Notes under the pieces: generated by a model
Told to the model about the DNA's origin: nothing
Database searches by the model: none
What the model saw: only the letters and a program-made list of their open reading frames with translations
Shown: piece after piece, positions 5,307 to 32,000 of the stretch
Layout of the letters: each line of letters starts with the position of its first letter
How positions within the stretch are numbered: position 1 is the first letter of the stretch
Translations under genes and position numbers: made by a program
Source of the DNA: Lamprocystis purpurea DSM 4197
GTDB lineage: Bacteria > Pseudomonadota > Gammaproteobacteria > Chromatiales > Chromatiaceae
Assembly (NCBI RefSeq): GCF_000379525.1
Contig: NZ_KB902522.1
Location: 17,265 to 49,264 of the forward strand
Length of the DNA stretch: 32,000 bases
Direction of reading: 5' to 3'

Positions 5307-6156
5307 GGTTCGGCTCGGTCGGTCGGTCGCCCGCGTTGCCCCAGTCGGCGAGGGCCAGCATGATGCGATTGACGATGGTGCGGGTGGGTTCGATATTGTC
5401 GGGGTTGTGCAGCAGCAGGTCGCGGTTGATCTCGATCGTGAAAGGGTGTTTGCCGCGCAGATCCTGGGGGTCGAAGCGGCTCAGCGAGTTGATCCCGGTG
5501 TAGGGGTGATTGAAACGCAGCACGTCACAGAAGTTGAAGTCGACGTCCAGGTCGCCGATGCTGGTCTCCACGATCTCGGCCAGCGTCAGCAGGAGTTCGC
5601 GCGCGGCGAAACAGTCATTGGGCGGATGCCCCTTCTCGTCGCCGGCATTGCCGAACATGAACAGCGGCCGCAGTTCCCCGCGATCCGCCGAGCTGCCGGT
5701 GCCGATCCCCGGCATGGTGTGGCAAAAGACGACTTTTTCGATCACCGGGCTCAGCAGCAGTTCGGCCAGCCGCTGCCGATGCGGGCGGATGTAGCGGTCG
5801 ATCACCTGCTGGCGGACTTGCTTGGGCAGGCCGCGATCCGACTGATAAATCTTGATGCCCTGACTGGTGAGGGTCTTCACCGCCCCGTCGGCGTCCAGAT
5901 CGTCGCAGGTCCGGTTGGGATCGGCATGCGCCCGCCAGATCAGAAAGCGCAGAATGTGCGGGGCGGCGGGCAGGTCCAGATAGATCTCGTCGGAGAACTC
6001 GTCGGAGTCTTCGCGGCGGTCCCCGGGGGTGAACTTGGGGTGCAGGTAGGACTTGACCTCATCCGGTGTCAGGTGGCCGCCGTGCGGTAACTCCAGGAGC
6101 ACGGGGATCCTGCCTGGGGTGTACTCGAATGGATGGACAGCGAAGGGCTGACTCAC
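5254..6156 (-). CDS. N-formylglutamate amidohydrolase (FGase) family hydrolase
   Basis: LELPHGGH…, RAHADPNR and CHTMPG motifs match the metal-ligand and DxNR pattern of the FGase family as I recall it. The start overlaps the ATP-grasp stop (ATGA at 6153-6156). Confidence 0.65.
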   Translation of the reverse strand: MSQPFAVHPFEYTPGRIPVLLELPHGGHLTPDEVKSYLHPKFTPGDRREDSDEFSDEIYLDLPAAPHILRFLIWRAHADPNRTCDDLDADGAVKTLTSQGIKIYQSDRGLPKQVRQQVIDRYIRPHRQRLAELLLSPVIEKVVFCHTMPGIGTGSSADRGELRPLFMFGNAGDEKGHPPNDCFAARELLLTLAEIVETSIGDLDVDFNFCDVLRFNHPYTGINSLSRFDPQDLRGKHPFTIEINRDLLLHNPDNIEPTRTIVNRIMLALADWGNAGDRPTEPNHARPPQRDRADDTADAR

Positions 6157-7466
6157 AACGCGATACCTGCAACCAAGTGCTTCGATTCGAAGGATGCCAG
6201 GAGGCCGGCATGGGTTTGCGGGTCCCCGTCACTGGCGACCGCGGCGTAGAGGCGCGTGATGCCGTCCGCGCGTGGATCATAACAGGCCCCGACCGGGATC
6301 AGCTCGCGGCGATGGATCTCCTGCCGGAAGTGATCGAGCAGTTCGGTGGGGGTGCCGGGAAAGCAGAAATAGCCGGTCGTGAGTTGCGGCCGGCGATGGC
6401 GGGTCGCCAGATAGTCGCCGAGCAGGAAGAAGGGCGTGGAACCGTTGAGACGGAAATTGGGGTCGATGAACCAGACCGCGCCGGCTCCATCCTCGAGCAG
6501 GTCCAGGCCGCAGACGCCATACCAGCCCAGTGCCGCGGCGGCCCGCGCCACCTGATCGCAGATCCGCGCGACCGGCGCTGGGGGCAGCCAGGCCAGATCG
6601 ATGAGGTTCCCCGCGTAGCGCCCGGCCGCCACCCGCTGTACCGAGCCGCCGATATAGCGAATGTGCCCGCGCCGGGTCACCTGTAACTGGACGTTGTAGT
6701 TGTGGCGGATGGACTCGATCAAGGGCTCGACTTTCACCGGACGGCCGCGCAAGCGGTGTTGTGCCTCGCGGACCTGGGTCTCGCGCCGACACAGCACCAC
6801 TCCGTCGCCGCCGCCGCTGGGTTCGGTCAGCTTGAGTACGAACGGCAGTTCCCAGCGCTCACGCCACTGGCCGTCGGCGAAGGCCTGGGCGTCCAGGGTC
6901 TCGTGGCGCAGCACGTGCGGGGTCAGTTCCGCGATGCGGCCTTTGTCGTTGAGCCGCACCACGAGGTGGGGATCGGCGAGATAATAGCGCTCGGCCGGGA
7001 GATGGGCGCTGTCGAACGGGTGGGGGGAGACGATGCGGTGGCGGGGGAATTCGGCCGCGCGCTGCCGGTAGCCGGTCGCTCCGGCATAGCGGATGACGGG
7101 GCCGAACTGACCCAGGAAATGCTCCCTGAAATAGCCGTTCCAATAGTCGGAAAGGTCCGTGGTCAGGTCCACCCCGGCAGCGTCGGCCAGGGTCAGAAAC
7201 TCCCCGCCCAGCAGCATGAAGCGCGCGGCCTGGCAACTGGCATAGCGCGGTCCGCGCAGAAAGAAGTAGTCGAAATCGCCGCGGCGCGGCTCATCCGGGG
7301 TGTAGAGCGGATAGCGCGGCAGATGCAGGGCCGGGCCGGGGAGGGCATAGAGGTCTGAAAAGGTCCGCCCGGTGAATCGGGGCCACGGGAGCCCCGGGCC
7401 CAGGGGTAACCGGGTCGCGTGTCGGCGGCGGTCTGCTTGGCCTTGAGGTCGGCGCGGGGTGTCCAC
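6153..7466 (-). CDS. ATP-grasp-fold protein (predicted amide/peptide ligase)
   Basis: The C-terminal half has an ATP-grasp-like pattern: VLKLTEPSGGGDGVVLC, YGVCGLDLLEDGAGAVWFIDPNFRLNGS. The N-terminal third is unassigned. Confidence 0.55.
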   Translation of the reverse strand: MDTPRRPQGQADRRRHATRLPLGPGLPWPRFTGRTFSDLYALPGPALHLPRYPLYTPDEPRRGDFDYFFLRGPRYASCQAARFMLLGGEFLTLADAAGVDLTTDLSDYWNGYFREHFLGQFGPVIRYAGATGYRQRAAEFPRHRIVSPHPFDSAHLPAERYYLADPHLVVRLNDKGRIAELTPHVLRHETLDAQAFADGQWRERWELPFVLKLTEPSGGGDGVVLCRRETQVREAQHRLRGRPVKVEPLIESIRHNYNVQLQVTRRGHIRYIGGSVQRVAAGRYAGNLIDLAWLPPAPVARICDQVARAAAALGWYGVCGLDLLEDGAGAVWFIDPNFRLNGSTPFFLLGDYLATRHRRPQLTTGYFCFPGTPTELLDHFRQEIHRRELIPVGACYDPRADGITRLYAAVASDGDPQTHAGLLASFESKHLVAGIAL

Positions 7467-7654
7467 AATGGGCCCTCCGTCCGCTTAGGGTTACGTCAGG
7501 ATGGGCGGATCTTTCAGCGGTTGGCGGGTCGATGCAACCTTTTTTTCCCGCGTAAGAGCGTTTCGTGTAGCAACTTGCGAGTGGGTGGACAGGACGAAGT
7601 ACCGGTGTCCACTGTGCTGACGCGGCGCGGTATGGTCCGAGCACCCGCGCGCGA

Positions 7655-9040
7655 GTGGCGTATACTCGCGAACATTCGCTAACGGCGGGCAGGGGGCAGT
7701 TGGTGGCGCAAGACGACGGTCCAAGAGACGTCGCTGATCGGATCGCCCGCACCTGGGCCGCCGATAGGTCGCTCCAGCTCGACCGGGAGCGGCTCGCTTA
7801 TTTGAGCGGCATCCATGCCTTCCTGGAACTGAATCCGGACCCCGTTCTCACCGAGGAGCAGTTGCGCGATATCTTCGGACTGCTCAACGACATCGTGCAA
7901 GGCGAGACCGGGGCGGTCGCGCAGCGCGCCACTTATGCGATCGACGCACTGTGCGCACAGTACCTGCTCGTCCGGTCCGATTTCGGTGGTGTTTCGACGG
8001 CGGGCGAGTTTACTTTGAGCCCCTTGGGCAAGACCCTGGCTGAATGGTTTGGAGCGCAAGAGGGCCTTGATCGCGAGGGGCTGGAAGTGATGCTCACGCG
8101 TATCCGTGGGGACCTCGCCGGGGTCCGTCAGGCCGCGCTTCTGGGCGGGGACGAGACCCATTGGCGCGCCCGGGTGGTGAGCCCACTGAAGCTCACGGTC
8201 GCCGGACTCGTTGAGATGATCGACCGTCGCCAGCGGGGGATGGATGTCCAGCAGCAAGAGATCCGCGAGCAGATCGGCCAGTTGTTGGAGGCCCAGTGGT
8301 TCGAGGCCATTGCGCGTTGCGAGACGCTGTTGCAGAACACCGGTGTGACCCTGCAGGAGCTGAACCATACCCTGATGTCCGAGACTGAGGGGGTCGCGAA
8401 TTTGCTCAACGAGATTTTCGAGGCTGCCGACGATGCCGATCAGGACGCTGCGCTGGATGCCGTCAGCTATGTCCGTACCCAGATCGAGCGGGTCGCCGCC
8501 TGGGGTGACAGCCGATTTCAGTCGTGGTCAGCCTACTATCAGAACGTGCATGAGTTTATTCGCACGATCGTCCGGGTCGACCGCGATCGGGCCCTGCGGG
8601 CGCGCTTGCGTGATGGGCTCAAAAGCTACACCGAGTTACCCTGGCATCTGCGTTGCGCCGCCCAGACCCCCTATCGCCACCTGCGGGAGCCGGAGTCCGG
8701 TCTGGACACCAAGGCCGTGGTTCGTCGGCGGACTGAGCGCGACGATAGGCTCGTTGACGCGTTAGCCGAAACCGATCCGCTGGAGCGGGTCTTTGCTGCC
8801 CTGCATGCACAGATGAACCAGACTGGCCGCCTCGACCTGTGGGATCTGTTGCACGAACGGCTTCCCAGCCATTCGGACGAGGAGCTGTTTCTGATGGCGG
8901 GTGCGTTGGTTAGATGGATGTTGGCGCAGGGGGAGCCGCTGCCGCCCCAGGGTTGGCAATGGATACCGCTCGGCCGCCGTCTGGAGGTGCAGAATCTGGT
9001 CGTCGAGCGGACCGCCAGGGAAGCACAGCGCGATGGATGA
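7655..9040 (+). CDS. MukF-like kleisin (JetA/MksB-type subunit of a Wadjet-like condensin)
   Basis: Blocks collinear with my recollection of E. coli MukF: GGDETHWRARVVSPLKLTVAG, QQQEIREQIGQLLEAQWFEAIARCETLL, NVHEFIRTIVRVDRDRALRARLRDGLKSY. The GTG start at 7655 is uncertain; GTG at 7703 is an alternative. Confidence 0.8.
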   Translation: MAYTREHSLTAGRGQLVAQDDGPRDVADRIARTWAADRSLQLDRERLAYLSGIHAFLELNPDPVLTEEQLRDIFGLLNDIVQGETGAVAQRATYAIDALCAQYLLVRSDFGGVSTAGEFTLSPLGKTLAEWFGAQEGLDREGLEVMLTRIRGDLAGVRQAALLGGDETHWRARVVSPLKLTVAGLVEMIDRRQRGMDVQQQEIREQIGQLLEAQWFEAIARCETLLQNTGVTLQELNHTLMSETEGVANLLNEIFEAADDADQDAALDAVSYVRTQIERVAAWGDSRFQSWSAYYQNVHEFIRTIVRVDRDRALRARLRDGLKSYTELPWHLRCAAQTPYRHLREPESGLDTKAVVRRRTERDDRLVDALAETDPLERVFAALHAQMNQTGRLDLWDLLHERLPSHSDEELFLMAGALVRWMLAQGEPLPPQGWQWIPLGRRLEVQNLVVERTAREAQRDG

Positions 9041-9743
9041 CGATCGTTATCACAGTCTTGAGTCCGTAATCTCAGACCCGCTGTTTCCCTGCATTGACCA
9101 TCGCCTGCGCTGCGGCTTTCATGTGGACAGCGACGACATCGCCGATTACGAGTTCTTGCTCTACGCGGCGGACTGGTTGCAAGGCTTTTACGCCGGCTAT
9201 CAGTGCCGTTTGATTCAAGCCCCTGAAGGTTATTGGTATCTGCGCTCGGAGGGCGAATTGCTCGGACACCGCCGGCTGAGCTTGGCTGAGATGCTGGTTG
9301 GTCAAGTGCTGGCCTTGATGCACATGGACCCGGTCTGGCTGAGCCAGACTGGGTGGATTCCGCGTACCAAGGTCCTGGAAACCCTGGAACATCTGCTCGG
9401 GCGTGAGCGCCTGGCGGCGCAACTGGCCCCGCGCAGCCGCGCCCGTGAACACCACGCGGACGACCGCCGTATCCGCGAAGCGGTGGACAAGGCCCTCAAC
9501 GGGCTGGAGGCACTGGGTTTCGTGCGCCAGCGGCGCGATACGGCCGAATTGTTGCCCCGGCGGCCACTGATGCGCTTCGTCGCCGCGGTCCGCGGTTCCG
9601 CCGATCCGAGGGAGGCGTTGGAGCGATTGGTATTGGAAGGAGAGGTGGAATTCGGCGATCCCGCGCGGGATGCCTCCGAGGCCCCGGATGACCCCGCCGT
9701 CGCCGTGCTCCCCGACGACGGCGAGGACCCGGATGAGCGTTAG
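9033..9743 (+). CDS. MukE-like KITE subunit (JetB/MksE-type)
   Basis: SDPLFPCIDHRLRCGFHV…FYAGYQCRLIQAPEGYWYLRS and VRGSADPREALERLVLEGEV parallel E. coli MukE blocks; acidic C-tail. The ATG overlaps the upstream stop (ATGGATGA). Confidence 0.85.
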   Translation: MDDDRYHSLESVISDPLFPCIDHRLRCGFHVDSDDIADYEFLLYAADWLQGFYAGYQCRLIQAPEGYWYLRSEGELLGHRRLSLAEMLVGQVLALMHMDPVWLSQTGWIPRTKVLETLEHLLGRERLAAQLAPRSRAREHHADDRRIREAVDKALNGLEALGFVRQRRDTAELLPRRPLMRFVAAVRGSADPREALERLVLEGEVEFGDPARDASEAPDDPAVAVLPDDGEDPDER

Positions 9744-12700
9744 GGCACGGATCAGCCGGCTGCTGTTGCTCAACTGGAAAGGGTTGTTTTTTCAGCCCTT
9801 CGAGCTGCACGAAGCGGTTACCGCACTGGAAGGCGAGAACGGGGCCGGCAAGACCACGGTCATGATTGCCGCCTTTGTCGCGCTGTTACCGGATCCGCAA
9901 CGGCTGAGTTTCCGCAATATCGGCGAGGGTGAGGGTAGCGGTGACGGTGATCGGGGCATCTACGGCCGTCTGGGTGACAAGGGGCCAAGCTACAGTCTGC
10001 TCGATCTGCGCACCGGCGACGGTGCCCGCGTCGTAGCCGGGGTCTGCCTGCTGCGTGGCGCCTCGCCGCATATCGAATTCAAGCGCTTCGTGGTTGAGGG
10101 TCTGTCGGTGGACCAGGACTTGGAGGCCTTGGTGCTGCTGCGAGACGGGGACAACGAGCGTATTCCTGATCTAGTTGAACTGCGCGAGGCGTTCGCCCAA
10201 ACCGGCGCGAGCATGCGCCTCTACGAGACCGCCGGACGTTACTGCGGACATCTGCACGAATTAGGCATCCTGCCCATGCGTATGGAGCAGTCGCAAGACC
10301 GCCAGCGTTTCCACCAGATGCTGCATACCAGCATGTACGGCGGCTTCTCCGGGGCACTGCAAAAGGGCTTGCGCGACTATCTGCTCAACGAAGACGAACG
10401 TCTGCGCAACCATGTCGTGCGCATGCGCGAAAACCTGGACGCCTGTCGCATCACCCGTCGGCGTATTGCCGAGGCCGACGCACGCTATCGGCTGATCGCC
10501 GAGGTCTTTCGGTTCGGGTGGGGTATGGTGGAGGCCGCTTTCCACGGTACCCGGCTGTTCGCCGAAACCCGTCGGGTGAGCGCCGCTGAGGCCCGTGCAG
10601 GCCATCGGCACTGTCGCCTGCTGCTCAGGGAGGCAGCGTTGGAGCATGAGCGGCTGATCCGTCGTCAGGCGGAGATTCAGCGCACCTTGGTGCCCCTGCA
10701 GGCGGCGGACCGAGAGACCGCCGAGCTGTTGGAGCGCTGCCAACGGGCGCGCCGTCTACGCACCGAGTTGGACAACCTGAAGCCCCGTCGCGTGGCGCAG
10801 GAGCAAGCCCTGGCGTTGACCGAGCACGCCTGTGAGGCCGCCCAATCTGCGGTGGCAAACGCCCGTGAGCGCCATCGGCACGAACAACAGGAGCGCGACG
10901 TGCTGACGGGCAACCTGGCCAACGCCCAGGACGCGTTCGCGGCCATCGCCTCCAAAGTGGGGCAGTACCACGCCGCCTTGACCAGTCTGAACGACGCCCG
11001 CGCCGCGCTGCCCGACCGGGAGTTGGATCCCGACCGGCTGGACGGCGTGCTCGTTGAGTGCGAGGACCAGTGGCAGACCGCCCTGACGGCGGTGTCGAGC
11101 ACGCAGCAATCGTTGGACGGTGCTGAAACCCGCCGCCAGCGGTTTGATACGTTACTCGCCGTCCTGGTCCGTCAGGCGGGGCATGCAGTGGCTGAGCACG
11201 AAGCCGCGGCCACCGCGTGTCAAGTGGATGCGGAACTGCGGGACCTGGAGGAGCGCGTGGCCCGTGCCCAGGATCTGCCGGAGCGCATCCAACAGGCCGA
11301 GGTGCGGGCACGCACCCAAGCCGACCTGCGTCGGCAACTTCAGCATCTGGTGCCCAGGTGTGGCCCACTGGATCGCGCCAATCAGGTGCGCGAGGCGCAT
11401 GCGCTGCAGGCCCGGCGCAGCCGTGCATTGGGCGTCGAGTTGGGCGATCTGAGCGCGCGTTGCGCGGAGCATCGCCGCGTGCGCGACCTGGCTGGCCAGC
11501 GCACCGAGACCCTGGAGCGGGACCTGGAGACTTGGCGCGGGGTCCAGACCCTGGCCGATGAACTGCGGGCTCTAGACGAGTGGCTGATCGATGGGTCAGA
11601 GACTTTGGAACTCCTTCGGGTCGAGTTGGTGCGGCAGGACGACGCGCTCGGCAGTCGGCTGAGAGAACTGGACGAGCAGCGTAAGCAGTTCGTTGAAGAA
11701 GCGGAACAACTGGAGTTTGGCGGCGGACGGCTCGACGAGTCGTTGGCCAGTCTAGCCGACCGGCTCGACGGCCAATTGGTGGCTGAGCGCTTCGATGCCG
11801 TACCGGCCGCGGAGGCGGCCATGATCGAGGCGCGCCTCGGTCCCCTGCATTCGGCCGTGCTGGTCTACGACATCGCCGCAGCCGCAGCGACCGCGGTCGG
11901 GGTGGAGCGGCGCCCAGAGCATCTGTGGCTGGTCCCAGCCGGGGAGCTGGCCGGCCCCCCGCCGGGGCAGACCCTGGGTGACAGTGAATTGGTGCAGATG
12001 GGAACTGTCTGGCGTCTGAGTCGGCAGCCGCACCATCCGGTGGTGGGCCGGGTGGCGCGCGATCAGGAGATCGCCCGCTTACGTACGGCAGTCCAGGTGT
12101 GCGAGGCGGAGCGCGACGGGCTGCGTGGCAAGCGCGTGCGCTTACGCGGTCATCTCCAGCTAGTCGGGCGGCTAGCCGCCGAGGTGCGCTGGCTCATGCT
12201 GCCGTCCCCGGAGATGGAACTGCGCAATCAGCGCCGGATTGCAGGCGAGCGCGGCCAACAATTGCAGCGCGACGAGGCCGCCCTGGCGGCACTGAAGCTC
12301 GAACGGACCCTGGCCGAGGAGATCGGCGTGGCTTTGGAGCGCTGCCTCCCCGATGCCGGTCTGCTCGACGAGGAAGACTGGTCGACCATTCTCCTGGTGC
12401 TACGCCGGGAGCGCGAGGCGGTCCAGGCGGCGCGGGCGCTGCTGGAGCGGTCGCAAGCCGACATCAAGACCCTGCGCGAGGGCTTTCTGGAGTTGCAGCA
12501 AGCCCCGCCCGATTGCGCCTACCTGGAGAATCTGCATCGGCGACAGACCGCCGCTCGGCAGATACTCGACTATTGGTCCAAGGCGAGACACCTGCTCAAG
12601 GACCTTGCCGAGCGCCGACTCCATTTCGCCTATGCCGACCAGGAGCCGCTGCTCAGGGAGCAGGATGGTGCACTAGGGGAATTGCGCGAGATGCTCGATG

Positions 12701-14133
12701 CGCTCCGGCAGCGGGTCGCCGTTCTCGAAAAAACGAAGGACCAGGCGGAACAGTCTCTGGAGCGGGCGCGCGCGGCGCACAACAGCGCAGACGCCGCGCT
12801 CAAGGCCACGGCTGCAAGCTGGGACGAACGAGCGAACCAACTCGCTGAGACCGGCGAGGATGGTTCGGCCGAGGGTCTGGCGGCGGCCGAGCGGCTGCGC
12901 GCCGACGCGGCGGCCGAGCTGGCGCAGGCGGATCGCGAGGACCGTCAGCTCCATGCGGATGTAGCAGTCGCTGCAAACTGTGTCGATCAGGCCGACAAGG
13001 AGCAGGCAAGGACTCGTGACGCCTGGCGCAAGACTCTGATAGAACTGCGCCCCAATTGGCGTAACTGGATCGGTTTGCGGCGCGAGGCCGCCCGGCTCGG
13101 CGTGTTGGACCGCCTCGTACGCGTAGCCGAGAGCTATCAGGCTTTGGGTCCGCCCAATGTCATGGGGCTGGCCAGCGAGCGCCGCGGCCAGTTGGGAGAA
13201 GCCGTGAAGAACGCCGACGGCGGGATGGATCTGGCACAGCAGCTCGCGCGGGGTCCGGGTGCCGCATCCGCCGAAGGTACGGCTGGACTTCGCGATCTGC
13301 GTGCTTGGGGTCTCGTGCGCGGGTTTCTGGAGCAAAGCATACCGCGCGACATCGCTCAATCGGACGACCCCCAGGTCGCGCTGGAGCAGATTGGCCAGCA
13401 CCTCACGCTGTTGCGCGAGCGACTGCTGGACCAGGAGCAGTCGCTACGGCACAGCACCGAAGAAATCGCCAACAGCATCCAGGTCAAGATCCGTCGGGAG
13501 GAGGCGCGGATCCACGGCCTCAATCGGGGGCTTGCGCGCGTGCGCTTCGGGTCCATCAGGGGGGTGCGCATCCATCTGGAGCGACAGCCCATGATGCTGA
13601 AGCTGCTCGACGCCATGCGCACTCAACCCGACCTGTTCGAGCAAGACGCCCCGCTGGAGGATGCACTCGCTGCCGTCTACCAACACCTAGGCGGCGGTCA
13701 GATTCAGGGCGAGCATCTGCTCGACTATCGCCAATACATCCGCATTGGCGTACAGGTGCAGCGCCTCGGCCGCGACGCCTGGATGGAGGCCCGCGCCGGA
13801 GCACTCTCCACCGGAGAGTCGATCGGTGTGGGTGCCGCCGTATTGGTGGTCATCCTTGATGCCTGGGAGCAGCAGGCGGCGCTGCTCAAGGGGCGCAAGG
13901 GCGGGCAGGCATTGCGCTTCCTGTTTCTCGACGAGGCCAACCGGCTGAGCCCCGAATCGCTCGACACGCTGACCGAGCTATGCGAACAGATGCAGGTTCA
14001 ACTGCTCGCCGCCGCGCCCGCAGCCGATCGTGGCCGCCGCGGACATATTTACCGCCTGGTTCGGCGCACCGACAGTACAGGTGCGGAGGAAGTCATCGTG
14101 CGCGGCCGGCGGATGCGTGACCTCGATCCATGA
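9733..14133 (+). CDS. MukB-like SMC-family ATPase, 1466 aa (JetC/MksF-type)
   Basis: N-terminus LLLLNWKGLFFQPFELHEAVTALEGENGAGKTTVMIAAFVALLPD, with Walker A at 9832-9858. It has a long Arg/Glu/Leu/Ala coiled-coil middle. The C-terminus carries ALSTGESIG, Walker B FLFLDEA (13918-13938) and LCEQMQVQLLAAAP. Size and motifs are close to MukB. Confidence 0.9.
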   Translation: MSVRARISRLLLLNWKGLFFQPFELHEAVTALEGENGAGKTTVMIAAFVALLPDPQRLSFRNIGEGEGSGDGDRGIYGRLGDKGPSYSLLDLRTGDGARVVAGVCLLRGASPHIEFKRFVVEGLSVDQDLEALVLLRDGDNERIPDLVELREAFAQTGASMRLYETAGRYCGHLHELGILPMRMEQSQDRQRFHQMLHTSMYGGFSGALQKGLRDYLLNEDERLRNHVVRMRENLDACRITRRRIAEADARYRLIAEVFRFGWGMVEAAFHGTRLFAETRRVSAAEARAGHRHCRLLLREAALEHERLIRRQAEIQRTLVPLQAADRETAELLERCQRARRLRTELDNLKPRRVAQEQALALTEHACEAAQSAVANARERHRHEQQERDVLTGNLANAQDAFAAIASKVGQYHAALTSLNDARAALPDRELDPDRLDGVLVECEDQWQTALTAVSSTQQSLDGAETRRQRFDTLLAVLVRQAGHAVAEHEAAATACQVDAELRDLEERVARAQDLPERIQQAEVRARTQADLRRQLQHLVPRCGPLDRANQVREAHALQARRSRALGVELGDLSARCAEHRRVRDLAGQRTETLERDLETWRGVQTLADELRALDEWLIDGSETLELLRVELVRQDDALGSRLRELDEQRKQFVEEAEQLEFGGGRLDESLASLADRLDGQLVAERFDAVPAAEAAMIEARLGPLHSAVLVYDIAAAAATAVGVERRPEHLWLVPAGELAGPPPGQTLGDSELVQMGTVWRLSRQPHHPVVGRVARDQEIARLRTAVQVCEAERDGLRGKRVRLRGHLQLVGRLAAEVRWLMLPSPEMELRNQRRIAGERGQQLQRDEAALAALKLERTLAEEIGVALERCLPDAGLLDEEDWSTILLVLRREREAVQAARALLERSQADIKTLREGFLELQQAPPDCAYLENLHRRQTAARQILDYWSKARHLLKDLAERRLHFAYADQEPLLREQDGALGELREMLDALRQRVAVLEKTKDQAEQSLERARAAHNSADAALKATAASWDERANQLAETGEDGSAEGLAAAERLRADAAAELAQADREDRQLHADVAVAANCVDQADKEQARTRDAWRKTLIELRPNWRNWIGLRREAARLGVLDRLVRVAESYQALGPPNVMGLASERRGQLGEAVKNADGGMDLAQQLARGPGAASAEGTAGLRDLRAWGLVRGFLEQSIPRDIAQSDDPQVALEQIGQHLTLLRERLLDQEQSLRHSTEEIANSIQVKIRREEARIHGLNRGLARVRFGSIRGVRIHLERQPMMLKLLDAMRTQPDLFEQDAPLEDALAAVYQHLGGGQIQGEHLLDYRQYIRIGVQVQRLGRDAWMEARAGALSTGESIGVGAAVLVVILDAWEQQAALLKGRKGGQALRFLFLDEANRLSPESLDTLTELCEQMQVQLLAAAPAADRGRRGHIYRLVRRTDSTGAEEVIVRGRRMRDLDP

Positions 14134-15116
14134 GCGCGCTCAGCTGGCAGGACCCGGATCTGCAATGGACCTTGGTCACACTGCTCGAGTTCGGCGAGAT
14201 CCGGCGCAATGCCGCCAATGCAACCCTGGTGGACTGGTTGCGCGAGGCCGGATGGGTTGGTCAAGGTTCGCGTCGGGATCTGTTTCTGCTTCGTCCGGCC
14301 AAGCGGGCGGCCGTGGCGGTCCGACTGGCCGAAGGCTGGCCCGACTGGCAACGCGATCTGGCCGCTTTGGCAGCCGCGGGCCTTCCCTGCGACGCGGCCG
14401 GGCTGCGTCAGTTGCGCCGGTGCGGAGTACCCCTGGCCGCGCTTCCGCCGCGATTGCATCGCAAGACCTGGATGGCCCGCTTCGGGGCTCATTCCAAGGC
14501 GGGTACACCGGATGCGCTGCCGCCGCCGACTCTGGTGCTCACCGATGACGACCTGCTGCGGCTGCGCCCGAATCGGGGGCTGGCGCTGCGCTTCGCCGAC
14601 GGGGAAGTACGTGACTGCGACGATTGGGTACGCCCGCTTGGTGAGTTGGTTATCCCCCAGCGCGCCCTGTGCGATGGTCTCTCCCTGTGCGGTACCCTTC
14701 CCCGATGGGTGATGACGGTCGAGAATCTGGGTGCCTACCTGGATCTGCCGGCGCCGTCCCAGGCCCTGGTGGTCCATCAACCGGGTTGGAACTGTCGGCT
14801 CGCCCGGCACCTGATCGGCCTGCTGCCGGCGGAGGTCTCCTGGTGGCATTTCGGCGATCTTGATCCCGAAGGGCTCGCGATCTTCGCGGCGCTCGGCGGC
14901 GAACTGCGCCGTCCGCGCTTATTTCTGCCGGATTGGTGGAGCGACTATCTGGACACGCACGCGTTGCCGCTCGGACCGGGACAGGGTTGGCCCGGAACTG
15001 AGTCCGACCGGGGTGCCGGACTACTTGCACTGCTGCGGCGCCGCGGCCGGTGGCTCGAACAGGAGGCGATCCTGCTTGATCCGCGGCTGCCGGACAGCTT
15101 GGCGGGCATCACCTAG
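14130..15116 (+). CDS. JetD/MksG-type Toprim (DUF2220-like) nuclease subunit, 328 aa
   Basis: Toprim signature: acidic E in VMTVENLGAY (GAG at 14721-14723) and HFGDLDPEGLAIF (DxD at 14857-14865), then WLEQEAIL near the C-terminus. The ATGA start overlaps the jetC-like stop. Confidence 0.8.
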   Translation: MSALSWQDPDLQWTLVTLLEFGEIRRNAANATLVDWLREAGWVGQGSRRDLFLLRPAKRAAVAVRLAEGWPDWQRDLAALAAAGLPCDAAGLRQLRRCGVPLAALPPRLHRKTWMARFGAHSKAGTPDALPPPTLVLTDDDLLRLRPNRGLALRFADGEVRDCDDWVRPLGELVIPQRALCDGLSLCGTLPRWVMTVENLGAYLDLPAPSQALVVHQPGWNCRLARHLIGLLPAEVSWWHFGDLDPEGLAIFAALGGELRRPRLFLPDWWSDYLDTHALPLGPGQGWPGTESDRGAGLLALLRRRGRWLEQEAILLDPRLPDSLAGIT

Positions 15117-24104: not shown

Positions 24105-24704
24105 TCAAAGTTCGTCCAAGATAGCCTGCGCCCAGGCGTTGATTGGTCCATAGGTCTTCACCAATTGGCCGTCGGTGGTGCGGAAAAGGAGCCGTGCAAG
24201 GCAATCTTCGACTGAGTTGTCATAGACGTAGGCGCGATTTGCCAGACGCACAGCAACCCCGCAGTTGATCAGCGAACGCTTGTAGCGGTCAATGATCTTG
24301 GCGATCGGCACATCATGGCCGCCTTGCATGACCCGCAAGGCGACGCGCTTGGCGTTGATCGAGGGGTCATCGGTGCCGACGAAAAATACCCGGACGAAAA
24401 ACCCTGCGCCCCGCGCGCGGCGGATGAAATCCAGCTTGTCAGGCATGGACAGCACGGTCTCGAACGCAAGGCTACGTCCCTGGGTCAGACAGGTTTCACG
24501 TATCTCCGCGGCACGGCGCGCAGCCTGGAGCACGGCCGCTGGGGCATTCCAGTCGCCGAACTCGTCCCGCGCAATGTAATCCGGATTCACATACGCGCAG
24601 CCGCCCATCCACTCATGGCGGAGCAGCTGCTCAGTAATAGATGTCTTGCCCGCCCCATTTGGGCCGGCGACCACGATCAGTCGCGGCCTTTCAGGTGCGT
24701 TCAT
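24105..24704 (-). CDS. Zeta-toxin-family / COG4185-type P-loop kinase-like ATPase (putative toxin)
   Basis: Walker A LIVVAGPNGAGKTS, then SLAFETVLS, FFVGTDDPSINAKRVALRVMQGGHDVP and YVYDNS, collinear with the zeta-toxin-like family as I recall it. Confidence 0.8.
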   Translation of the reverse strand: MNAPERPRLIVVAGPNGAGKTSITEQLLRHEWMGGCAYVNPDYIARDEFGDWNAPAAVLQAARRAAEIRETCLTQGRSLAFETVLSMPDKLDFIRRARGAGFFVRVFFVGTDDPSINAKRVALRVMQGGHDVPIAKIIDRYKRSLINCGVAVRLANRAYVYDNSVEDCLARLLFRTTDGQLVKTYGPINAWAQAILDEL

Positions 24705-28427: not shown

Positions 28428-29051
28428 TCAACGATGCCGTGCCCGTCGCGGCGGCCTGAAGTATGGACCATAAGGCCGATACCAGGGGCTGAACCCGGAT
28501 CTGAACCAGGGATCGTACCAGGGGCCGTAAAAGGGCGAGAATCCCGGTCCATAGTAGACATCGGCGCTCGGCGGGGGTGCCGCGGGCCAGAGGTAGCGAT
28601 GTTCGACCCGGACGATGGGGTAGAGATAGGGGTAATCACCCACCGGGCGGGTCTCCGTCCCGGTGATGGGGCCGACCACGGTCAGTTCGCGATCCACACC
28701 AACCTCCGCCGGGTCGAGAAAACTCCCGACGCGTGCGATGAATCGGCCCTGGCCCTCGCTCCCGGCGCGCGGTGCGCCGACGGCGTCCAGGGGCCGGGCC
28801 AGCACCTCGATCTCGGTGTTGTCCGGGTGATTGCGGACGGCGATGATGGTCCCGCCCCAGCGCACCGGTTGCCCGGTGAAGCGCGCCGGGTCGCGCTGGA
28901 CCTGGGCCAGGTCCACCGTGACGGCGGGCGGAGTGCGGATGGTCGCGGGAATCTGCGAGGCGCAGCCGCACAGCGTCAGCACGGCCAGCACGACCGCTGC
29001 GCGTGTCGATGATGGGCGACCAAGCGATACCTTGAGGCGTGTGCTGTACAT
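28428..29051 (-). CDS. Slp-family outer-membrane lipoprotein paralogue with an aromatic/Pro-rich C-terminal tail
   Basis: Signal/lipobox …AVLTLCGC. PVRWGGTIIAVRN…EIEVLARPLD…GRFIARVGSFLDPAEV…YPYLYPIV. Tail YYGPGFSPFYGPWYDPWFRSGFSPWYRPYGPYFRPP. Start taken at the internal Met. Confidence 0.75.
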   Translation of the reverse strand: MYSTRLKVSLGRPSSTRAAVVLAVLTLCGCASQIPATIRTPPAVTVDLAQVQRDPARFTGQPVRWGGTIIAVRNHPDNTEIEVLARPLDAVGAPRAGSEGQGRFIARVGSFLDPAEVGVDRELTVVGPITGTETRPVGDYPYLYPIVRVEHRYLWPAAPPPSADVYYGPGFSPFYGPWYDPWFRSGFSPWYRPYGPYFRPPRRARHR

Positions 29052-29198
29052 AAGTGAACAATCGTTGTCGTTGTCGTTGTCGTAATCGAGTTGACAAAAC
29101 GGCCTTGGATCATCGCCGCGGCCATCGTACACGCTGCATGGTCATTAATCCGCGGCGCGGACCGTACGAATCACTGTTTTCCCATCGGGTCCGCCGCG

Positions 29199-29735
29199 GT
29201 GCGTCCCGGCAAGGGTGCGTCGTCGAGTGGGTGAAAGTCCCACCCAGGTCACCGCTCGCCACTGGCCTGGCAGCGCCTTGCGGCGGGAACTGGCAACAGG
29301 CCGTCGATGCGTCGGCACGAGAGGAGACGCGGTGCTAATGGTAACAGGTGGCGCTGACCGTGAAGGCTTAGGTGATTTCCGGGAAAGGATCTACCGCCGT
29401 GTAGGGGCGAATTCATTCGCCCCTACAACCCAACAGGCTTTCTGCGCATGTCCAGTCGGGATGCCTATTCACGGAAATCGCCTTAAGCCCTGAAATACCC
29501 AAGTTGGAACCGGCCGTCGGTGTCGCCGCACCAGCAGGTAACACCTGTGCAGGCACCTTCAATTCGTCGGCGTGAGCGGCAACTTCCGTTTCCGGAACTT
29601 ACGGAAACCGTGATCCAGATCACGAAGCCCCACTTGCAAAACAGCGGTGAGACGCGGAAAGTACACACCGAGGGGCGATGGACTTCGGCAGGACCGCCAG
29701 CCGATGGGTAGCACCGAGCCACTGGGGGACCCGCG
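29199..29735 (+). ncRNA. Group II (class C-like) intron RNA, ORF-less and probably 3'-truncated; the 3' boundary is uncertain
   Basis: Begins GTGCG directly after a stem-loop (29151-29198). The first ~45 nt (GTGCGTCCCGGCAAGGGTGCGTCGTCGAGTGGGTGAAAGTCCCAC) are collinear with my recollection of the O. iheyensis IIC intron 5' end. Candidate domain-I closing strand at 29649-29676, and a 17-bp long-range helix 29365-29381/29472-29489. No plausible protein coding in any frame. I did not find domain V. Confidence 0.45.
29401..29426. repeat. Perfect 26-bp palindrome (REP-like) inside the intron-like RNA
   Basis: GTAGGGGCGAATTCATTCGCCCCTAC; GTAG/CTAC-bounded like the REP units at 25340-25452. Confidence 0.7.
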
Positions 29736-29737
29736 GC

Positions 29738-29839
29738 AGGGCCCGAAGCGGCCTCAAAAGCGAGCGCGCCCCACGGGGCTCGTGCTAATTCTCAGCGTCA
29801 TCAGTGGCGCGCGCTGCTTTTTTAGGCCGGACGTTAGGC
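29738..29839 (+). repeat. attC-like imperfect palindrome A, ending in GTTAGGC
   Basis: Left arm GGCCTCAAAAGCGAGCGCGCC (29750-29770) pairs, with bulges, to GGCGCGCGCTGCTTTTTTAGGCC (29806-29828). Then GGAC and GTTAGGC (29833-29839). The 3' ~35 bp recur at 31079-31108. Confidence 0.35.
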
Positions 29840-30085
29840 TCGGTAACTTCGGCAACGGAAATACTATGTATCAAGAAATGTGGGTTAGGCTTTACGACTG
29901 CTCCGTAATGCAAAGACGCAGCCATTCCACGAACGAAAAATGCTGGACTTAGGTACCATTTGCGGCTGCAAGAACGCTAACCGCCCGCACCAGCCTGGGC
30001 CGCGCGACGAGTGGGTTCCGCCGCCGCACCGGCTTAATCTCATGTGCAAACGTCGTATTTGCTATCTTGAAAAGAGGATATACAG

Positions 30086-30409
30086 ATGGGCTTATTTGAT
30101 TTTCTAGATCCCGTTCAATCTACAGGTAACTGGGTTGCATCAACTGCTAAGAAAATCACAAGAGGAGATTGGGGAAAGGCTAGAAACGATATTTCGCCAT
30201 TACTAGTCCAAATGGTGCGAACAAGACCAGGAACACCCGCTTCTGTAGAAGCGGAAATATACAAGAATGAGGTAGATTCGCTATCAAAATTGGGGACAGC
30301 TCTACTTATTTCTGAAGCTCGTAGTGTGAATCCTAGCGATATTCCCGGCATTCAAAGTAAGATTTCAAACATATTGAAAGAAAAAGGCATACCGCAAGAC
30401 TTAATATGA
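30086..30409 (+). CDS. Hypothetical protein, 107 aa (low-GC region)
   Basis: ATG preceded by AAGAGGA. Followed by a hairpin and T-rich tract at 30410-30436. No family recognised. Confidence 0.5.
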   Translation: MGLFDFLDPVQSTGNWVASTAKKITRGDWGKARNDISPLLVQMVRTRPGTPASVEAEIYKNEVDSLSKLGTALLISEARSVNPSDIPGIQSKISNILKEKGIPQDLI

Positions 30410-30436
30410 GTCCCGAATTTCGGGGACAGTTTTCTT
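30410..30436 (+). terminator. Possible rho-independent terminator
   Basis: GTCCCGAAtTTCGGGGAC followed by AGTTTTCTT. Confidence 0.45.
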
Positions 30437-30527
30437 AATTCAGGGGCATGGGGTCAGGTTTTGCCTTAAGAACAGAGAGCCTAACTTAGTCATTGTTAAT
30501 AATCTAGTGAATAGTATAGGCAAATAA

Positions 30528-30740
30528 ATGTTAGAGTTGCTAATAGTGCTATTGAGTATCGTGATGCTGATCGGTGGGTACGCAATTGCTCGAGAAACAT
30601 CATTATTTGGGCCTAGGCATGGTTTTCTTATCAATTGGCAAGATCACCCATGGCGTTCTTTCGAGACCGTCTGTGCGTATATCACAACTGCTTTATTGAT
30701 TCTTATAGCTATAAAATGGATAATTGGTTTATTCTTATAA
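30528..30740 (+). CDS. Small two-TM membrane protein, 70 aa
   Basis: Two hydrophobic helices (LLIVLLSIVMLIGGYAI and ITTALLILIAIKWIIGLFL). No family recognised and the RBS is weak. Confidence 0.4.
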   Translation: MLELLIVLLSIVMLIGGYAIARETSLFGPRHGFLINWQDHPWRSFETVCAYITTALLILIAIKWIIGLFL

Positions 30741-30942
30741 ATTCCAAGAAGGCTAAAATAAACCAACATCAAGAAACATAATTCTCGCAGAAAAGGTAGT
30801 CGGCCTAAATAAACGTGCAGAACAAGATTTCCTCGCTCGCCTAGACGCTATGCCGGTTGAGGAAGCTAGAGAAAAAATACTGAAACATGATTTTGGAGTT
30901 TCTCTTGAGCATCCGCACCACCAGCTAGGAATGCAATGCTAG

Positions 30943-31031
30943 TTACGGTGACAGTTTACTAAATGCACTGAATGCGGATGGGCGTTGAACGCAACCCCGT
31001 AATTACTGTATTTAGTAAACTGTCACCGTAA
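30943..31031. repeat. Perfect 22-bp inverted repeat with a 45-nt spacer
   Basis: TTACGGTGACAGTTTACTAAAT (30943-30964) and ATTTAGTAAACTGTCACCGTAA (31010-31031). A related half-site CGGGGACAGTTTTCTTAATT lies at 30421-30440. Confidence 0.85.
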
Positions 31032-31034
31032 TTT

Positions 31035-31108
31035 GAGGCGCGCTACGACCGGCGGAGCAGAACTCGGGCATCGCAGTAGGCGCGCCCGCTTTAGGCGAAA
31101 CGTTAGGC
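31035..31108 (+). repeat. attC-like imperfect palindrome B, ending in GTTAGGC
   Basis: GAGGCGCGC (31035-31043) pairs with GGCGCGCC (31079-31086). The 3' arm GGCGCGCCCGCTTTAGGCGAAACGTTAGGC is a direct repeat of the 3' arm of element A. Confidence 0.3.
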
Positions 31109-31121
31109 CTCTGATCTCCTT

Positions 31122-32000
31122 ATGTCCAATACGGATTCAATCGACCTTAGCTTGCTTGAGAATAGCCATGCCTTCCTCAACGAAGCTGTGGCGAAGGTTC
31201 TGGTAGCAACCTCCGACATTCGGCATTGGCAGTTTGCGATCCTCAATCTTGTGCAGTCACTCGAACTAAGCCTCAAAGCTGCTCTCAGTGCAATTCATCC
31301 GATTCTGGTCTACGAAGACATCGACAACCCGAAAAACAGCCTGAGTTCCATTCGCGCAATTCAACGACTTGAAAACCCAAAGATCGGCGGGTTCACTTTC
31401 TCAGATAGAGACAAGACAAGGATTCGGAGTGCTATTAAAGTGCGGAATGAGGTTACCCATTCGGGCTTCAATTTTACTGGTCAGCACGCCGCAGCAAATT
31501 TCTTCGAGATATTTGCCTTTGTGTCCGATTTCCAACGACGTCGTCTCAACACCGATGTAGCCGATCTAATTCCGTCCGAGAACTTCCAACAGCTTTTACA
31601 GATTCGGAGGCTCCTTGATGAGTTAGTGTTAAGAGCCAAGAACCGAATTGCTGAAGAAGAAGTCGATGGCAAGTTCGTATGGGCATGTCCGAATTGCGGA
31701 GAGGACACCTTTGTCATCGAAGACGGCGCCGATATCTGCTATGTGTGCTCCCATGCGGAGGCTGTAGTTGAATGCGCGCACTGCGAGCAGTTGAATTTCG
31801 AGTCCGCCATGGAGTCGTTTTTCGAGTCTCTCGACACAGACTACGATGAGGGACGGACCGTTATGCATAACTCCTATGGCTACAGCAACTTCGAGGCCTG
31901 CCCCGATTGCGTCTCGAAGATCATGCGAGATATTCAAGAGCAGCGAGTGCAAGAAGAATTTCATCGGCTGGAAGAGGAGTATCACCATAGAAACGCCTAA
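31122..32000 (+). CDS. HEPN-like (RNxxxH) N-terminal domain protein with a C-terminal 4x CxxC zinc-ribbon region, 292 aa
   Basis: Complete ORF, with the stop at the window end. Helical N-domain with IKVRNEVTHSG (Rx4H at 31443-31460). The C-terminal half has CPNC…CYVC…CAHC…CPDC. The family assignment is inference only. Confidence 0.55.
   Translation: MSNTDSIDLSLLENSHAFLNEAVAKVLVATSDIRHWQFAILNLVQSLELSLKAALSAIHPILVYEDIDNPKNSLSSIRAIQRLENPKIGGFTFSDRDKTRIRSAIKVRNEVTHSGFNFTGQHAAANFFEIFAFVSDFQRRRLNTDVADLIPSENFQQLLQIRRLLDELVLRAKNRIAEEEVDGKFVWACPNCGEDTFVIEDGADICYVCSHAEAVVECAHCEQLNFESAMESFFESLDTDYDEGRTVMHNSYGYSNFEACPDCVSKIMRDIQEQRVQEEFHRLEEEYHHRNA

What the first reader, a model, noticed from the sequence alone, without database searches (positions are those of the whole stretch)
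29151..29735. ORF-less group IIC-like intron RNA inserted directly after a stem-loop
A GC-rich hairpin (CGCGGCGCGGACC, 24-nt loop, GGTCCGCCGCG; 29151-29198) is followed without a gap by GTGCG, the group II 5' consensus GUGYG. The next ~40 nt (TCCCGGCAAGGGTGCGTCGTCGAGTGGGTGAAAGTCCCAC) run parallel to my recollection of the O. iheyensis class C intron (GUGUGCCCGGCAUGGGUGCAGUCUAUAGGGUGAGAGUCCC). Further on, motifs common in domain I appear (GGTAACAGGTGGCG, CGTGAAGGC). There is a 17-bp long-range helix (29365-29381 with 29472-29489). GAGACGCGGAAAGTACACACCGAGGGG (29649-29676) can close domain I by pairing GACGC with GCGTC and CCG(A)GG with CCCGG, mirroring the O. iheyensis arrangement. Insertion right after a hairpin is the hallmark of class C introns. 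However, no frame encodes a reverse transcriptase, a REP-like palindrome interrupts the RNA at 29401-29426, and I could not find a canonical 34-nt domain V or domain VI. It therefore looks like a decayed, truncated or trans-dependent intron. It sits exactly at the boundary between core high-GC DNA and a low-GC cassette-like region.
Basis: partly seen in the sequence, partly recalled or inferred. Interest (0 to 1): 0.65.

Follow-up and report, generated by a model that had tools for sequence, protein, structure and literature searches.

The report
Truncated group II intron stub
The first ~170 bases of the reported region are the 5' end of a group II intron, but the catalytic domain and the reverse transcriptase are absent, so it is a broken remnant at the edge of an integron-type gene-cassette array; its only oddity is that the remnant is unusually well conserved.

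Summary
GTGCG at 29199 follows a GC-rich hairpin and opens a class-C-type 5' signature that occurs in 0 of 100 shuffles. The same pattern retrieves more than 119 loci elsewhere, mostly multi-copy class C introns.

Rfam gives only a sub-threshold domain I hit (RF02005, 27.4 bits against a cutoff of 49, E=1e-5). However, window 29199-29366 is 74% identical (E=6e-19) to a second element, E2, in the same strain's cassette array. E2 passes the Rfam cutoff (62.2 bits), and four base pairs differ from E1 by compensatory changes. The first ~170 nt are therefore genuine group II domain I.

The remaining ~380 nt show no detectable intron homology and no covariation. Domain V/VI is absent by RF00029 and by an independent structural scan, both validated on real introns. 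There is no RT or maturase remnant. The element is a 3'-truncated fragment, not an ORF-less ribozyme.

The low-GC DNA to its right is a one-directional attC cassette array with no integrase in view. The stub is co-oriented with the cassettes, unlike IIC-attC introns.

One result is unexplained. The stub differs at 1-2 of 162 positions between three haplotypes, whereas four-fold degenerate sites in the flanking genes differ by 10-12%.

The parts
29150..29199 (+). GC-rich palindromic hairpin directly upstream of the intron 5' end: 13-bp stem with one bulge and a 24-nt loop. It belongs to a palindromic repeat family.
   Evidence: Sequence. Fold -25 kcal/mol, but z=-0.14 against shuffles. Homologous palindromic element in the Thiodictyon plasmid, L137 7555-7640.
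29199..29366 (+). E1: the 5'-terminal ~170 nt of a group II intron domain I (GUGCG, class-C-type 5' motif, two RF02005 hairpins including a GCAA-capped stem).
   Evidence: 5' signature in 0 of 100 shuffles. 74% identity to E2 (L125 7616-7777), E=6e-19. E2 passes RF02005 at 62.2 bits. 4 compensatory pairs between E1 and E2. z=6.3 against a Bacillus class C intron.
29234..29360 (+). Sub-threshold Rfam match to RF02005 (group-II-D1D4-6).
   Evidence: 27.4 bits against a gathering score of 49, E=1.1e-5. Model positions 114-217 are skipped. The score is 27.4 in haplotypes A and B and 26.3 in L125 (haplotype W).
29365..29489 (.). Inverted-repeat helix (arms 29365-29381 / 29472-29489). It encloses a REP-like perfect palindrome (29401-29426) and an 18-nt insertion (29379-29396) present only in the window's haplotype. 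It could be an inserted small element rather than intron structure.
   Evidence: No similarity to genuine introns.
29649..29676 (+). Candidate domain I closing segment, GAGACGCGGAAAGTACACACCGAGGGG. Unconfirmed.
   Evidence: It resembles the closing segments of genuine introns: Thiodictyon AGAGACGCUGGAGAACCGGG and Bacillus GACTGTACTCTTACCCGGGG. The CC->TT change in haplotype B keeps G-U pairing. It is not in the MFE, and the alignment z-scores are <=1.1.
29719..29745 (+). First ~27 nt of a repeated cassette-end module ('unit A'). Collinearity between the three haplotypes ends at 29745.
29746..29839 (+). First attC-type site of the array ('unit B'). The L''/L' box and R' (GTTAGGC, 29833-29839) are present, but the R'' box is missing and replaced by the end of the conserved block.
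   Evidence: Homologous sites in L001, L125 and the Thiodictyon plasmid pTs485.
29834..31102 (+). Cassette 1 (low GC), with ORFs at 30086-30409 (107 aa) and 30528-30740 (70 aa) and a 93-nt palindrome at 30941-31033.
31022..31108 (+). Second attC-type site, ending in TTTAGGCGAAACGTTAGGC.
31103..32000 (+). Start of cassette 2 (ORF 31122-32000, 292 aa, zinc-ribbon-like). L125 shows that the array continues for about 2.4 kb beyond the window.

Best explanation
Window 29199 to about 29366 is the 5' end of a group II intron. It has a class-C-like 5' motif and an RF02005-type domain I. I infer that the intron retrohomed immediately 3' of a palindromic stem-loop, as class C introns do. The copy has since lost everything needed for activity: the rest of a recognisable domain I, domains V and VI, and the reverse transcriptase/maturase gene. 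It therefore cannot splice, cleave or move, and it is a fossil fragment.

The following ~380 nt (29367-29745) are other non-coding DNA. They contain a REP-like palindrome and an inverted-repeat element, and possibly some unrecognisably altered intron sequence. [quoted passage not shown] The stub plus the array is a lineage-specific insertion upstream of slp-slp-groES-groEL in a Chromatiaceae bacterium.

Shown: homology of the 5' 170 nt, absence of D5/D6 and RT, the attC array, and the strain-level mosaic. Inferred: the insertion history and the lack of present function.
For: - The 5' signature is unique in the window and absent from 100 shuffles. The same pattern retrieves multi-copy class C introns.
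- RF02005 hit with E=1e-5.
- 74% identity (E=6e-19) to E2, which passes Rfam's cutoff. Homology starts exactly at GTGCG. There are 4 compensatory, 1 wobble and 14 unchanged pairs.
- RF00029 is absent at E<=10 in the window and in haplotype A, and at E<=1 in six whole loci. The same search finds D5/D6 at 45 bits in a genuine intron.
- An independent D5 structural scan finds all four control D5s and none in any version of the element.
- No RT or maturase by Pfam or tblastn.
- Other 3'-truncated stubs after hairpins exist: L082, L039, L054.
- E1 positions 171-547 give z<=1.4 against genuine introns, with no compensatory changes and a covariation term of +2.13.
- No other copy of this subtype turned up in the metagenome scan, only this locus.
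- attC array.
- Relatives have ppx or ppk directly upstream of slp, with no element.
Against: - A dead fragment should drift. Yet 29199-29360 has 1 (W-A) or 2 (W-B) substitutions in 162 nt. Adjacent non-coding DNA differs by about 4%, and four-fold degenerate sites of the flanking genes by 10.4-12.4%. Poisson P is 0.009 against neighbouring non-coding DNA. My own calculation from the rates gives about 2e-4 against slp2 four-fold sites.
- The boundary of the conserved stretch coincides with the boundary of intron homology.
- The closure-like motif at 29649-29676 leaves open that more of domain I survives than I can prove.
- The class assignment is uncertain. Genuine Bacillus class C introns hit RF02001/RF01998, not RF02005.
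Confidence: 0.72

Rival explanations
1. The conserved ~170-nt stub has been co-opted. It would be kept by selection as a structured RNA leader or insulator for the cassette array, as a DNA site (promoter, regulator or recombinase binding), or as part of cassette genesis. A second co-oriented stub (E2) sits at the far end of the same array.
For: - Very low divergence confined to the intron-homologous part in three haplotypes.
- E1 and E2 lie on the same strand at the two ends of the array.
- IIC-attC introns are known to carry outward promoters in domain I, and the TTGCCA -35 motif is present at the equivalent position, as top-strand TGGCAA at 29291-29296 (PMC3001079).
Against: - No -10 element follows the TTGCCA motif, and no sigma-70-like promoter was found on either strand, even with relaxed criteria.
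- There are no compensatory changes among haplotypes, though only 2 sites vary, so the test has no power.
- E2 is absent from haplotype A.
- There are only three haplotypes, and I chose the segment boundaries after seeing the data. 4.6% of coding windows are equally conserved.
Confidence: 0.15
2. It is a complete but unusual ORF-less group II ribozyme (HYER-like or trans-acting) spanning about 29199-29745. Its domain V would be too divergent to be recognised, or would be supplied in trans.
For: - The size (about 550 nt) matches ORF-less class C ribozymes of 0.4-0.6 kb (PMC11754743).
- The 5' end is intact and follows a stem-loop.
- There is a closure-like motif at 29649-29676.
- The whole block evolves more slowly than four-fold degenerate sites.
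Against: - No D5/D6 by RF00029 or by the structural scan, both with positive controls.
- No D5 upstream (the circularly permuted arrangement) and none at the far side of the array.
- 'Unit A' folds as an attC site, not as D5/D6.
- The interior of domain I is not alignable to any model or intron.
- Two RF02005 pairs are broken in E1.
- The 3' end differs between haplotypes.
Confidence: 0.05
3. It is a remnant of a IIC-attC intron event linked to cassette formation (the Leon-Roy model). In that model an intron behind a hairpin recombines with an intron at an attC site, joining upstream DNA to an attC.
For: - The stub is followed, after ~380 nt, by an attC whose R'' box is missing exactly where the conserved block ends.
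- E2 has the same layout: ORF, stub, filler, attC.
- IIC-attC introns occur in Chromatiaceae and at this attC family in the Thiodictyon plasmid (PMC3001079 Table 3).
Against: - The orientation is opposite to that of all described IIC-attC introns (PMC7923331, PMC3001079).
- There is no TTGT/T junction.
- No intron 3' end is present at the attC.
- The junctions can equally be explained by deletion or homologous recombination between repeated modules.
Confidence: 0.06
4. It is not intron-derived at all: a chance resemblance, or another RNA such as a cobalamin riboswitch.
For: - The Rfam score is below the gathering threshold.
- GGTGAAAGTCC and GCCACTG also occur in cobalamin riboswitches (my own recollection).
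Against: - No cobalamin hit or any other better hit at E<=10.
- The 5' signature occurs in 0 of 100 shuffles.
- Homology to a bona fide RF02005 match, with compensatory changes.
Confidence: 0.02

Closest known systems
Fragmented (3'-truncated) bacterial group II introns of class C, the 'F' entries of the bacterial group II intron database
   Same: GUGCG 5' end directly after a stem-loop, class-C-type 5' motif, recognisable domain I hairpins, no RT, intergenic location. Comparable stubs were seen here in L082, L039 and L054.
   Different: The retained stub is far more conserved between strains than neutral sites. The best Rfam model is RF02005, not the RF02001/RF01998 pair hit by Bacillus class C introns.
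Group IIC-attC introns of integrons (S.ma.I2, Kl.pn.I1, A. vinosum intron; PMC3001079, PMC7923331)
   Same: Association with an attC cassette array; proteobacterial/Chromatiaceae host; TGGCAA motif at about the same domain I position as the P1out -35 box. A classical example lies next to the same attC family in Thiodictyon pTs485.
   Different: These introns lie on the bottom strand opposite to the cassettes, insert at TTGT/T within R'', and carry an IEP and D5/D6. E1 is co-oriented with the cassettes, follows a non-attC palindrome, and has no IEP, no D5/D6 and no predicted outward promoter.
HYER / ORF-less class C ribozymes (Liu et al., Science 2024, as described in PMC11754743)
   Same: No ORF; total length of the conserved block about 0.55 kb; class-C-like 5' end.
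   Different: HYERs are catalytically active and so need the domain V active site. No domain V exists here, and most of domain I is unrecognisable.
Circularly permuted group II introns (bioRxiv 10.64898/2025.12.30.696962)
   Same: D1 begins without a preceding exon-encoded gene.
   Different: These introns require D5-D6 upstream of D1. None was found on either strand of 28950-30100.

Membership tests
Group II intron (functional ribozyme/retroelement) | 5' GUGYG consensus at the intron start | tested here: met
   GTGCG at 29199-29203. Homology with E2 begins exactly there.
Group II intron (functional ribozyme/retroelement) | Domain I matching a curated D1-D4 covariance model at the gathering score | tested here: inconclusive
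   RF02005 scores 27.4 bits against a gathering score of 49, E=1e-5, and only model positions 1-113 and 218-225 align. The homologous E2 reaches 62.2 bits. So homology holds for the first ~170 nt, but a full domain I is not shown.
Group II intron (functional ribozyme/retroelement) | Domain V (34-nt catalytic hairpin) and domain VI | tested here: not met
   No RF00029 hit at E<=10 or at E<=1 in six loci. The positive control scores 45.1 bits. The structural D5 scan finds 4 of 4 controls and 0 hits in the element.
Group II intron (functional ribozyme/retroelement) | Intron-encoded RT/maturase in domain IV (or an evident ORF-less domain IV) | tested here: not met
   No Pfam hit in local ORFs. tblastn with a class C IEP and with a Chromatiaceae maturase finds nothing.
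Class C (IIC) group II introns | Insertion immediately 3' of a stem-loop (terminator, attC or other palindrome) | tested here: met
   Hairpin 29150-29199 abuts GTGCG. The hairpin is a palindromic repeat, not a T-tailed terminator.
Class C (IIC) group II introns | Class C 5' sequence CCCGGCAUGGGUGC...GGGUGARAGUCCC | tested here: met
   There is one extra base after GTGCG compared with all genuine copies.
Class C (IIC) group II introns | Domain I-IV matching the models hit by genuine class C introns (RF02001, RF01998) | tested here: not met
   Genuine copies score 144.7 and 71.6 bits. E1's best hit is RF02005, and neither RF02001 nor RF01998 is reported.
Group IIC-attC lineage | Inserted in the attC bottom strand, opposite to cassette transcription | tested here: not met
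   E1 and the cassette ORFs/attC top strands are all on the + strand.
Group IIC-attC lineage | Insertion at TTGT/T within R'' of an attC | tested here: not met
   The 5' exon is ...GGTCCGCCGCG, part of a non-attC palindrome.
Group IIC-attC lineage | IEP falling in the IIC-attC clade | not testable with these tools
   No IEP is present.
HYER / ORF-less class C ribozyme | Intact catalytic core (domain V) despite lacking an ORF | tested here: not met
Circularly permuted group II intron | D5-D6 located upstream of D1 | tested here: not met
   No D5 on either strand of 28950-30100.
Integron cassette array (context) | Repeated attC sites (R''-L''...L'-R', GTTRRRY core) in one orientation, separating short ORF-bearing segments | tested here: met
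   ACG|TTAG boundaries all point one way, with 0 in reverse. A canonical site folds with R and L boxes, z=-3.5. Array content differs between haplotypes.
Integron cassette array (context) | Adjacent integron integrase (intI) and attI | tested here: not met
   No tyrosine recombinase among the large ORFs scanned in the window or the genes called on the locus contigs. An integron-integrase-like gene exists on an unlinked contig of the same sample series (L139).
Cobalamin riboswitch (RF00174) | Match to the covariance model | tested here: not met
   No hit at E<=10.

The most novel reading that the evidence does not exclude
Group II intron domain I stubs have been domesticated as selected elements of chromosomal cassette arrays. 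E1 lies at the proximal edge and E2 at the distal end, both on the cassette-sense strand, contrary to the IIC-attC rule. They might act as structured RNA leaders or insulators, or as platforms in cassette formation, which would explain the near-invariance of E1 across haplotypes.
Probability: 0.1. Interest if true: 0.7.

Novelty: new member of a known kind. Interest (0 to 1): 0.3.

Why it matters
As a truncated intron fragment, it mainly serves as an annotation marker. It shows that class-C-type introns were active at the edge of a Chromatiaceae cassette array, and it adds a sense-strand case to the intron-integron association. It would matter more if the strong conservation of the stub reflects selection, because that would be an example of a ribozyme fragment reused by its host or by the cassette array.

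Tried and rejected
- Cobalamin riboswitch or any other Rfam family: no hit.
- 'Unit A' of haplotype A as the missing D5/D6: it folds as an attC with R/L boxes and gives no RF00029 hit.
- D5/D6 upstream (circularly permuted) or at the far end of the array, as if the array sat in domain IV: no RF00029 hit in six whole loci.
- Outward promoter (Pout) towards slp2: the -35 TTGCCA motif is present but there is no -10, and nothing was found by strict or relaxed scans.
- Protein-coding explanation for the conservation: ORF 29215-29493 has no Pfam hit. By my own reading of the sequence, the equivalent frame in E2 hits a stop codon early.
- Full-length parent copy: the metagenome scan for the subtype found only this locus. 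The viral scan gave a chance hit in a phage CDS. The plasmid search found only fragments in Thiodictyon pTs485. Full-length Thiodictyon-lineage introns (L138, L140) do not align with E1 positions 171-547.
- My first D5 structural scanner missed the positive controls, so I discarded it. I re-tuned it until all controls were found.
- The exact-protein look-up with the 191-aa Slp ORF failed, probably because of the start codon.
- Covariation among haplotypes: none, but with three close sequences the test has little power.

Full report
OBSERVATION

- A GC-rich hairpin at 29150-29199, with a 13-bp stem, one bulge and a 24-nt loop.
- GTGCG at 29199-29203.
- The run TCCCGGCAAGGGTGCGTCGTCGAGTGGGTGAAAGTCCCAC.
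- A perfect REP-like palindrome at 29401-29426.
- A long inverted repeat, 29365-29381 with 29472-29489.
- A fall in GC content from about 0.6-0.7 to 0.41-0.50 after 30000.

The hairpin on its own is not remarkable. It folds at -25 kcal/mol, but that is no better than shuffled sequence (z=-0.14). It belongs to a palindromic repeat family that also occurs in a Thiodictyon plasmid.

The 5' signature is remarkable. The pattern CCGGCANGGGTGC-N4-16-GGTGARAGTCC occurs once in the window and in 0 of 100 shuffles. In reference genomes it retrieved more than 119 loci, mostly multi-copy class C introns of Bacillota and other phyla.

IS IT A GROUP II INTRON?

At gathering thresholds Rfam finds nothing in the whole window. 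A permissive search of 28950-30100 gives one meaningful hit. This is RF02005 (group-II-D1D4-6) at 29234-29360, with 27.4 bits against a cutoff of 49 and E=1.1e-5, and with the middle 104 model positions skipped. There is no cobalamin hit and no other better hit.

The decisive evidence came from the neighbourhood. L125 is a metagenome contig of the window's own haplotype that extends beyond the window. It carries a second RF02005 match (E2, L125 7651-7835) at 62.2 bits, above the curated cutoff, about 1.9 kb past the window's right end.

E1 (window 29199-29366) and E2 (L125 7616-7777) are 74% identical, with E=6e-19. The similarity starts exactly at GTGCG. On the RF02005 consensus pairs, the two elements show 14 identical pairs, 4 fully compensatory changes, 1 wobble change and 2 pairs broken in E1. 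The first ~170 nt are therefore genuine group II domain I sequence.

WHAT IS MISSING

Domain V/VI is absent.
- RF00029 gives no hit at E<=10 in the window or in haplotype A.
- It gives no hit at E<=1 in six complete loci covering all haplotypes and whole arrays.
- Under the same settings it finds D5/D6 of a genuine class C intron at 45.1 bits.
- An independent structural D5 scan recovers the D5 of L140, L024 and both L013 introns. It finds none in any version of the element. My first, over-strict version failed its controls and was discarded.

No RT or maturase remnant exists.

Positions 171-547 of the block align no better than shuffles with a Bacillus class C intron or with the ribozyme part of a Chromatiaceae intron (z<=1.4). 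They also do not match a full-length intron of that lineage (L140). A consensus fold of the three haplotypes shows no compensatory change and an unfavourable covariation term of +2.13.

The CC->TT change in haplotype B keeps G-U pairing. However, the closure is not in the MFE, and I could not confirm it statistically. I therefore rate it as open.

CONTEXT

The window comes from a Chromatiaceae bacterium. The same locus occurs in MAG ppb02 and in a series of lake metagenome contigs.

To the left, on the minus strand, lie groEL, groES and two Slp lipoprotein genes. In the nearest other genera, slp is preceded directly by ppx or ppk, with no element and no array. The stub plus the array is therefore a lineage-specific insertion.

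Three haplotypes (W, A, B) are collinear up to 29745 and then differ completely.

The variable DNA is a one-directional array of attC-type sites that all end in ACG|TTAG. One site is a canonical GCCTAAC...GTTAGGT site whose bottom strand folds with R and L boxes. The window's first attC (29746-29839) lacks its R'' box, and the conserved block ends where R'' should be.

No integrase is present among the large ORFs scanned in the window or the genes called on the locus contigs. An integron-integrase-like gene sits on an unlinked contig of the same sample series.

The Thiodictyon plasmid pTs485 shows the classical arrangement for the same attC family. There an intron 5' region and a maturase fragment lie on the opposite strand, abutting the attC. 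By contrast, E1 and E2 are co-oriented with the cassette ORFs. They therefore do not follow the published IIC-attC rule of bottom-strand insertion at TTGT/T in R'' (PMC7923331, PMC3001079).

MECHANISM

The best-supported account is that a class-C-like intron once inserted behind the palindrome and was later truncated. The remnant can neither splice nor move. Similar 5' stubs after hairpins occur elsewhere: L082, L039 and L054. Confidence is about 0.7.

THE UNEXPLAINED PART

Between haplotypes, 29199-29360 has 1 (W-A) or 2 (W-B) substitutions in 162 nt. By comparison:
- adjacent non-coding DNA differs by about 4-5%;
- the rest of the block differs by 3.9%;
- four-fold degenerate sites of the flanking genes differ by 10.4-12.4%.

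Poisson P is 0.009 against neighbouring non-coding DNA. My own calculation from the rates gives about 2e-4 against slp2 four-fold sites and about 1e-6 against all four-fold sites.

There are caveats. Only three haplotypes are available. 4.6% of 162-nt coding windows are equally conserved. The rate contrast was noticed after the fact, although the segment itself is defined independently by intron homology.

Possible explanations are selection on an RNA or DNA function, or copy-correction from an unseen master intron. No such copy was found. The outward-promoter idea, borrowed from IIC-attC introns, is not supported. The -35-like TTGCCA is present, as top-strand TGGCAA at 29291-29296, but no -10 follows, and no promoter is predicted on either strand.

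VERDICT

This is a real but ordinary kind of object: a 3'-truncated group II intron fragment, not an ORF-less ribozyme. It lies in an interesting setting, at the edge of a CALIN-like cassette array and on the sense strand. One unexplained property remains, the strong conservation of the stub.

Novelty: new member of a known kind. Interest: 0.3.

Noticed in passing
L125 7616-7813 (about 1.6-1.8 kb beyond the window's right end, same haplotype): A second group II domain I stub (E2; RF02005 62.2 bits). It lies on the cassette-sense strand, 35 nt after the stop codon of the last cassette's 141-aa ORF. It also lacks D5 and RT, and it is absent from haplotype A.
   Followed up: yes
window 29746-32000; L125 3500-8170; L001 2190-7585; L061 1-2120: Integron-type cassette array whose content differs between three haplotypes. 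Haplotype A carries a TIR-domain gene among others. No integrase is in view (CALIN-like). The first attC of the window lacks R'', and the last attC has a degenerate R' (GCCAGGC).
   Followed up: partly
window 30941-31033 and L061 1417-1508: A 93-nt near-perfect palindrome (TTACGGTGACAGTTTACTAAATGCA...) is 98% identical in two haplotypes but sits in different cassettes. It may be a small mobile element or a conserved cassette module.
   Followed up: no
window 29064-29081: The hexanucleotide repeat (GTTGTC)n varies in copy number between haplotypes (3, 1 and 2 copies). It lies 13-30 nt upstream of the probable slp2 start codon (ATG at about 29051, minus strand), so it could be a phase-variable tract.
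   Followed up: no
window 29100-29115 and L125 8283-8297; also L001 837-860 / 2055-2078: The motif CGGCCTTG(G)ATCATCG occurs on both flanks of the stub-plus-array island. It also forms inverted repeats around a PDDEXK_2 (Rpn/transposase-like) gene in haplotype A. It could be an island or transposon end.
   Followed up: no
L125 7814-8045; L001 373-425 and 2318-2425: A small palindromic repeat family (AGCTAAAGGGGTCAGAGCCCTTTAATTCGGCT) is clustered at the distal end of the array. In L125 one copy is interrupted by a ~120-nt element with terminal inverted repeats, which also occurs in Thiodictyon (L137 5463-5612).
   Followed up: partly
window 6153-15116: Genes for MukF-like, MukB-like and JetD-like proteins, which looks like a Wadjet/JetABCD-type system. 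Further right there are a zeta-toxin gene (24105-24704), McrBC homologues in haplotypes A and L002/L003, and two Uma2 endonuclease genes. The region upstream of groESL appears to be a defence-gene neighbourhood.
   Followed up: partly
L139 2438-3598 (JGI Ga0247839_1027387): An integron-integrase-like gene (TIGR02249, 258 bits against a cutoff of 265) lies next to a group II intron RT fragment. The contig is short and comes from the same sample series as haplotype A. Linkage to this array is unknown.
   Followed up: partly
L138 5006-6086 (Thiodictyon syntrophicum plasmid pTs485): Classical IIC-attC arrangement: an opposite-strand intron 5' region plus a maturase fragment abut an attC of the same family as the window's. 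The intron's 5' end reads ...TATAGCGCC instead of GUGYG.
   Followed up: partly
L082 (about 1154-1186, minus strand) and L039 (about 1586-1618): In a Burkholderiales MAG and in Streptomyces yanii, only about 45 nt of a class C intron 5' end remain, after a terminator-like hairpin. This shows that very short 5' stubs recur in unrelated genomes.
   Followed up: partly
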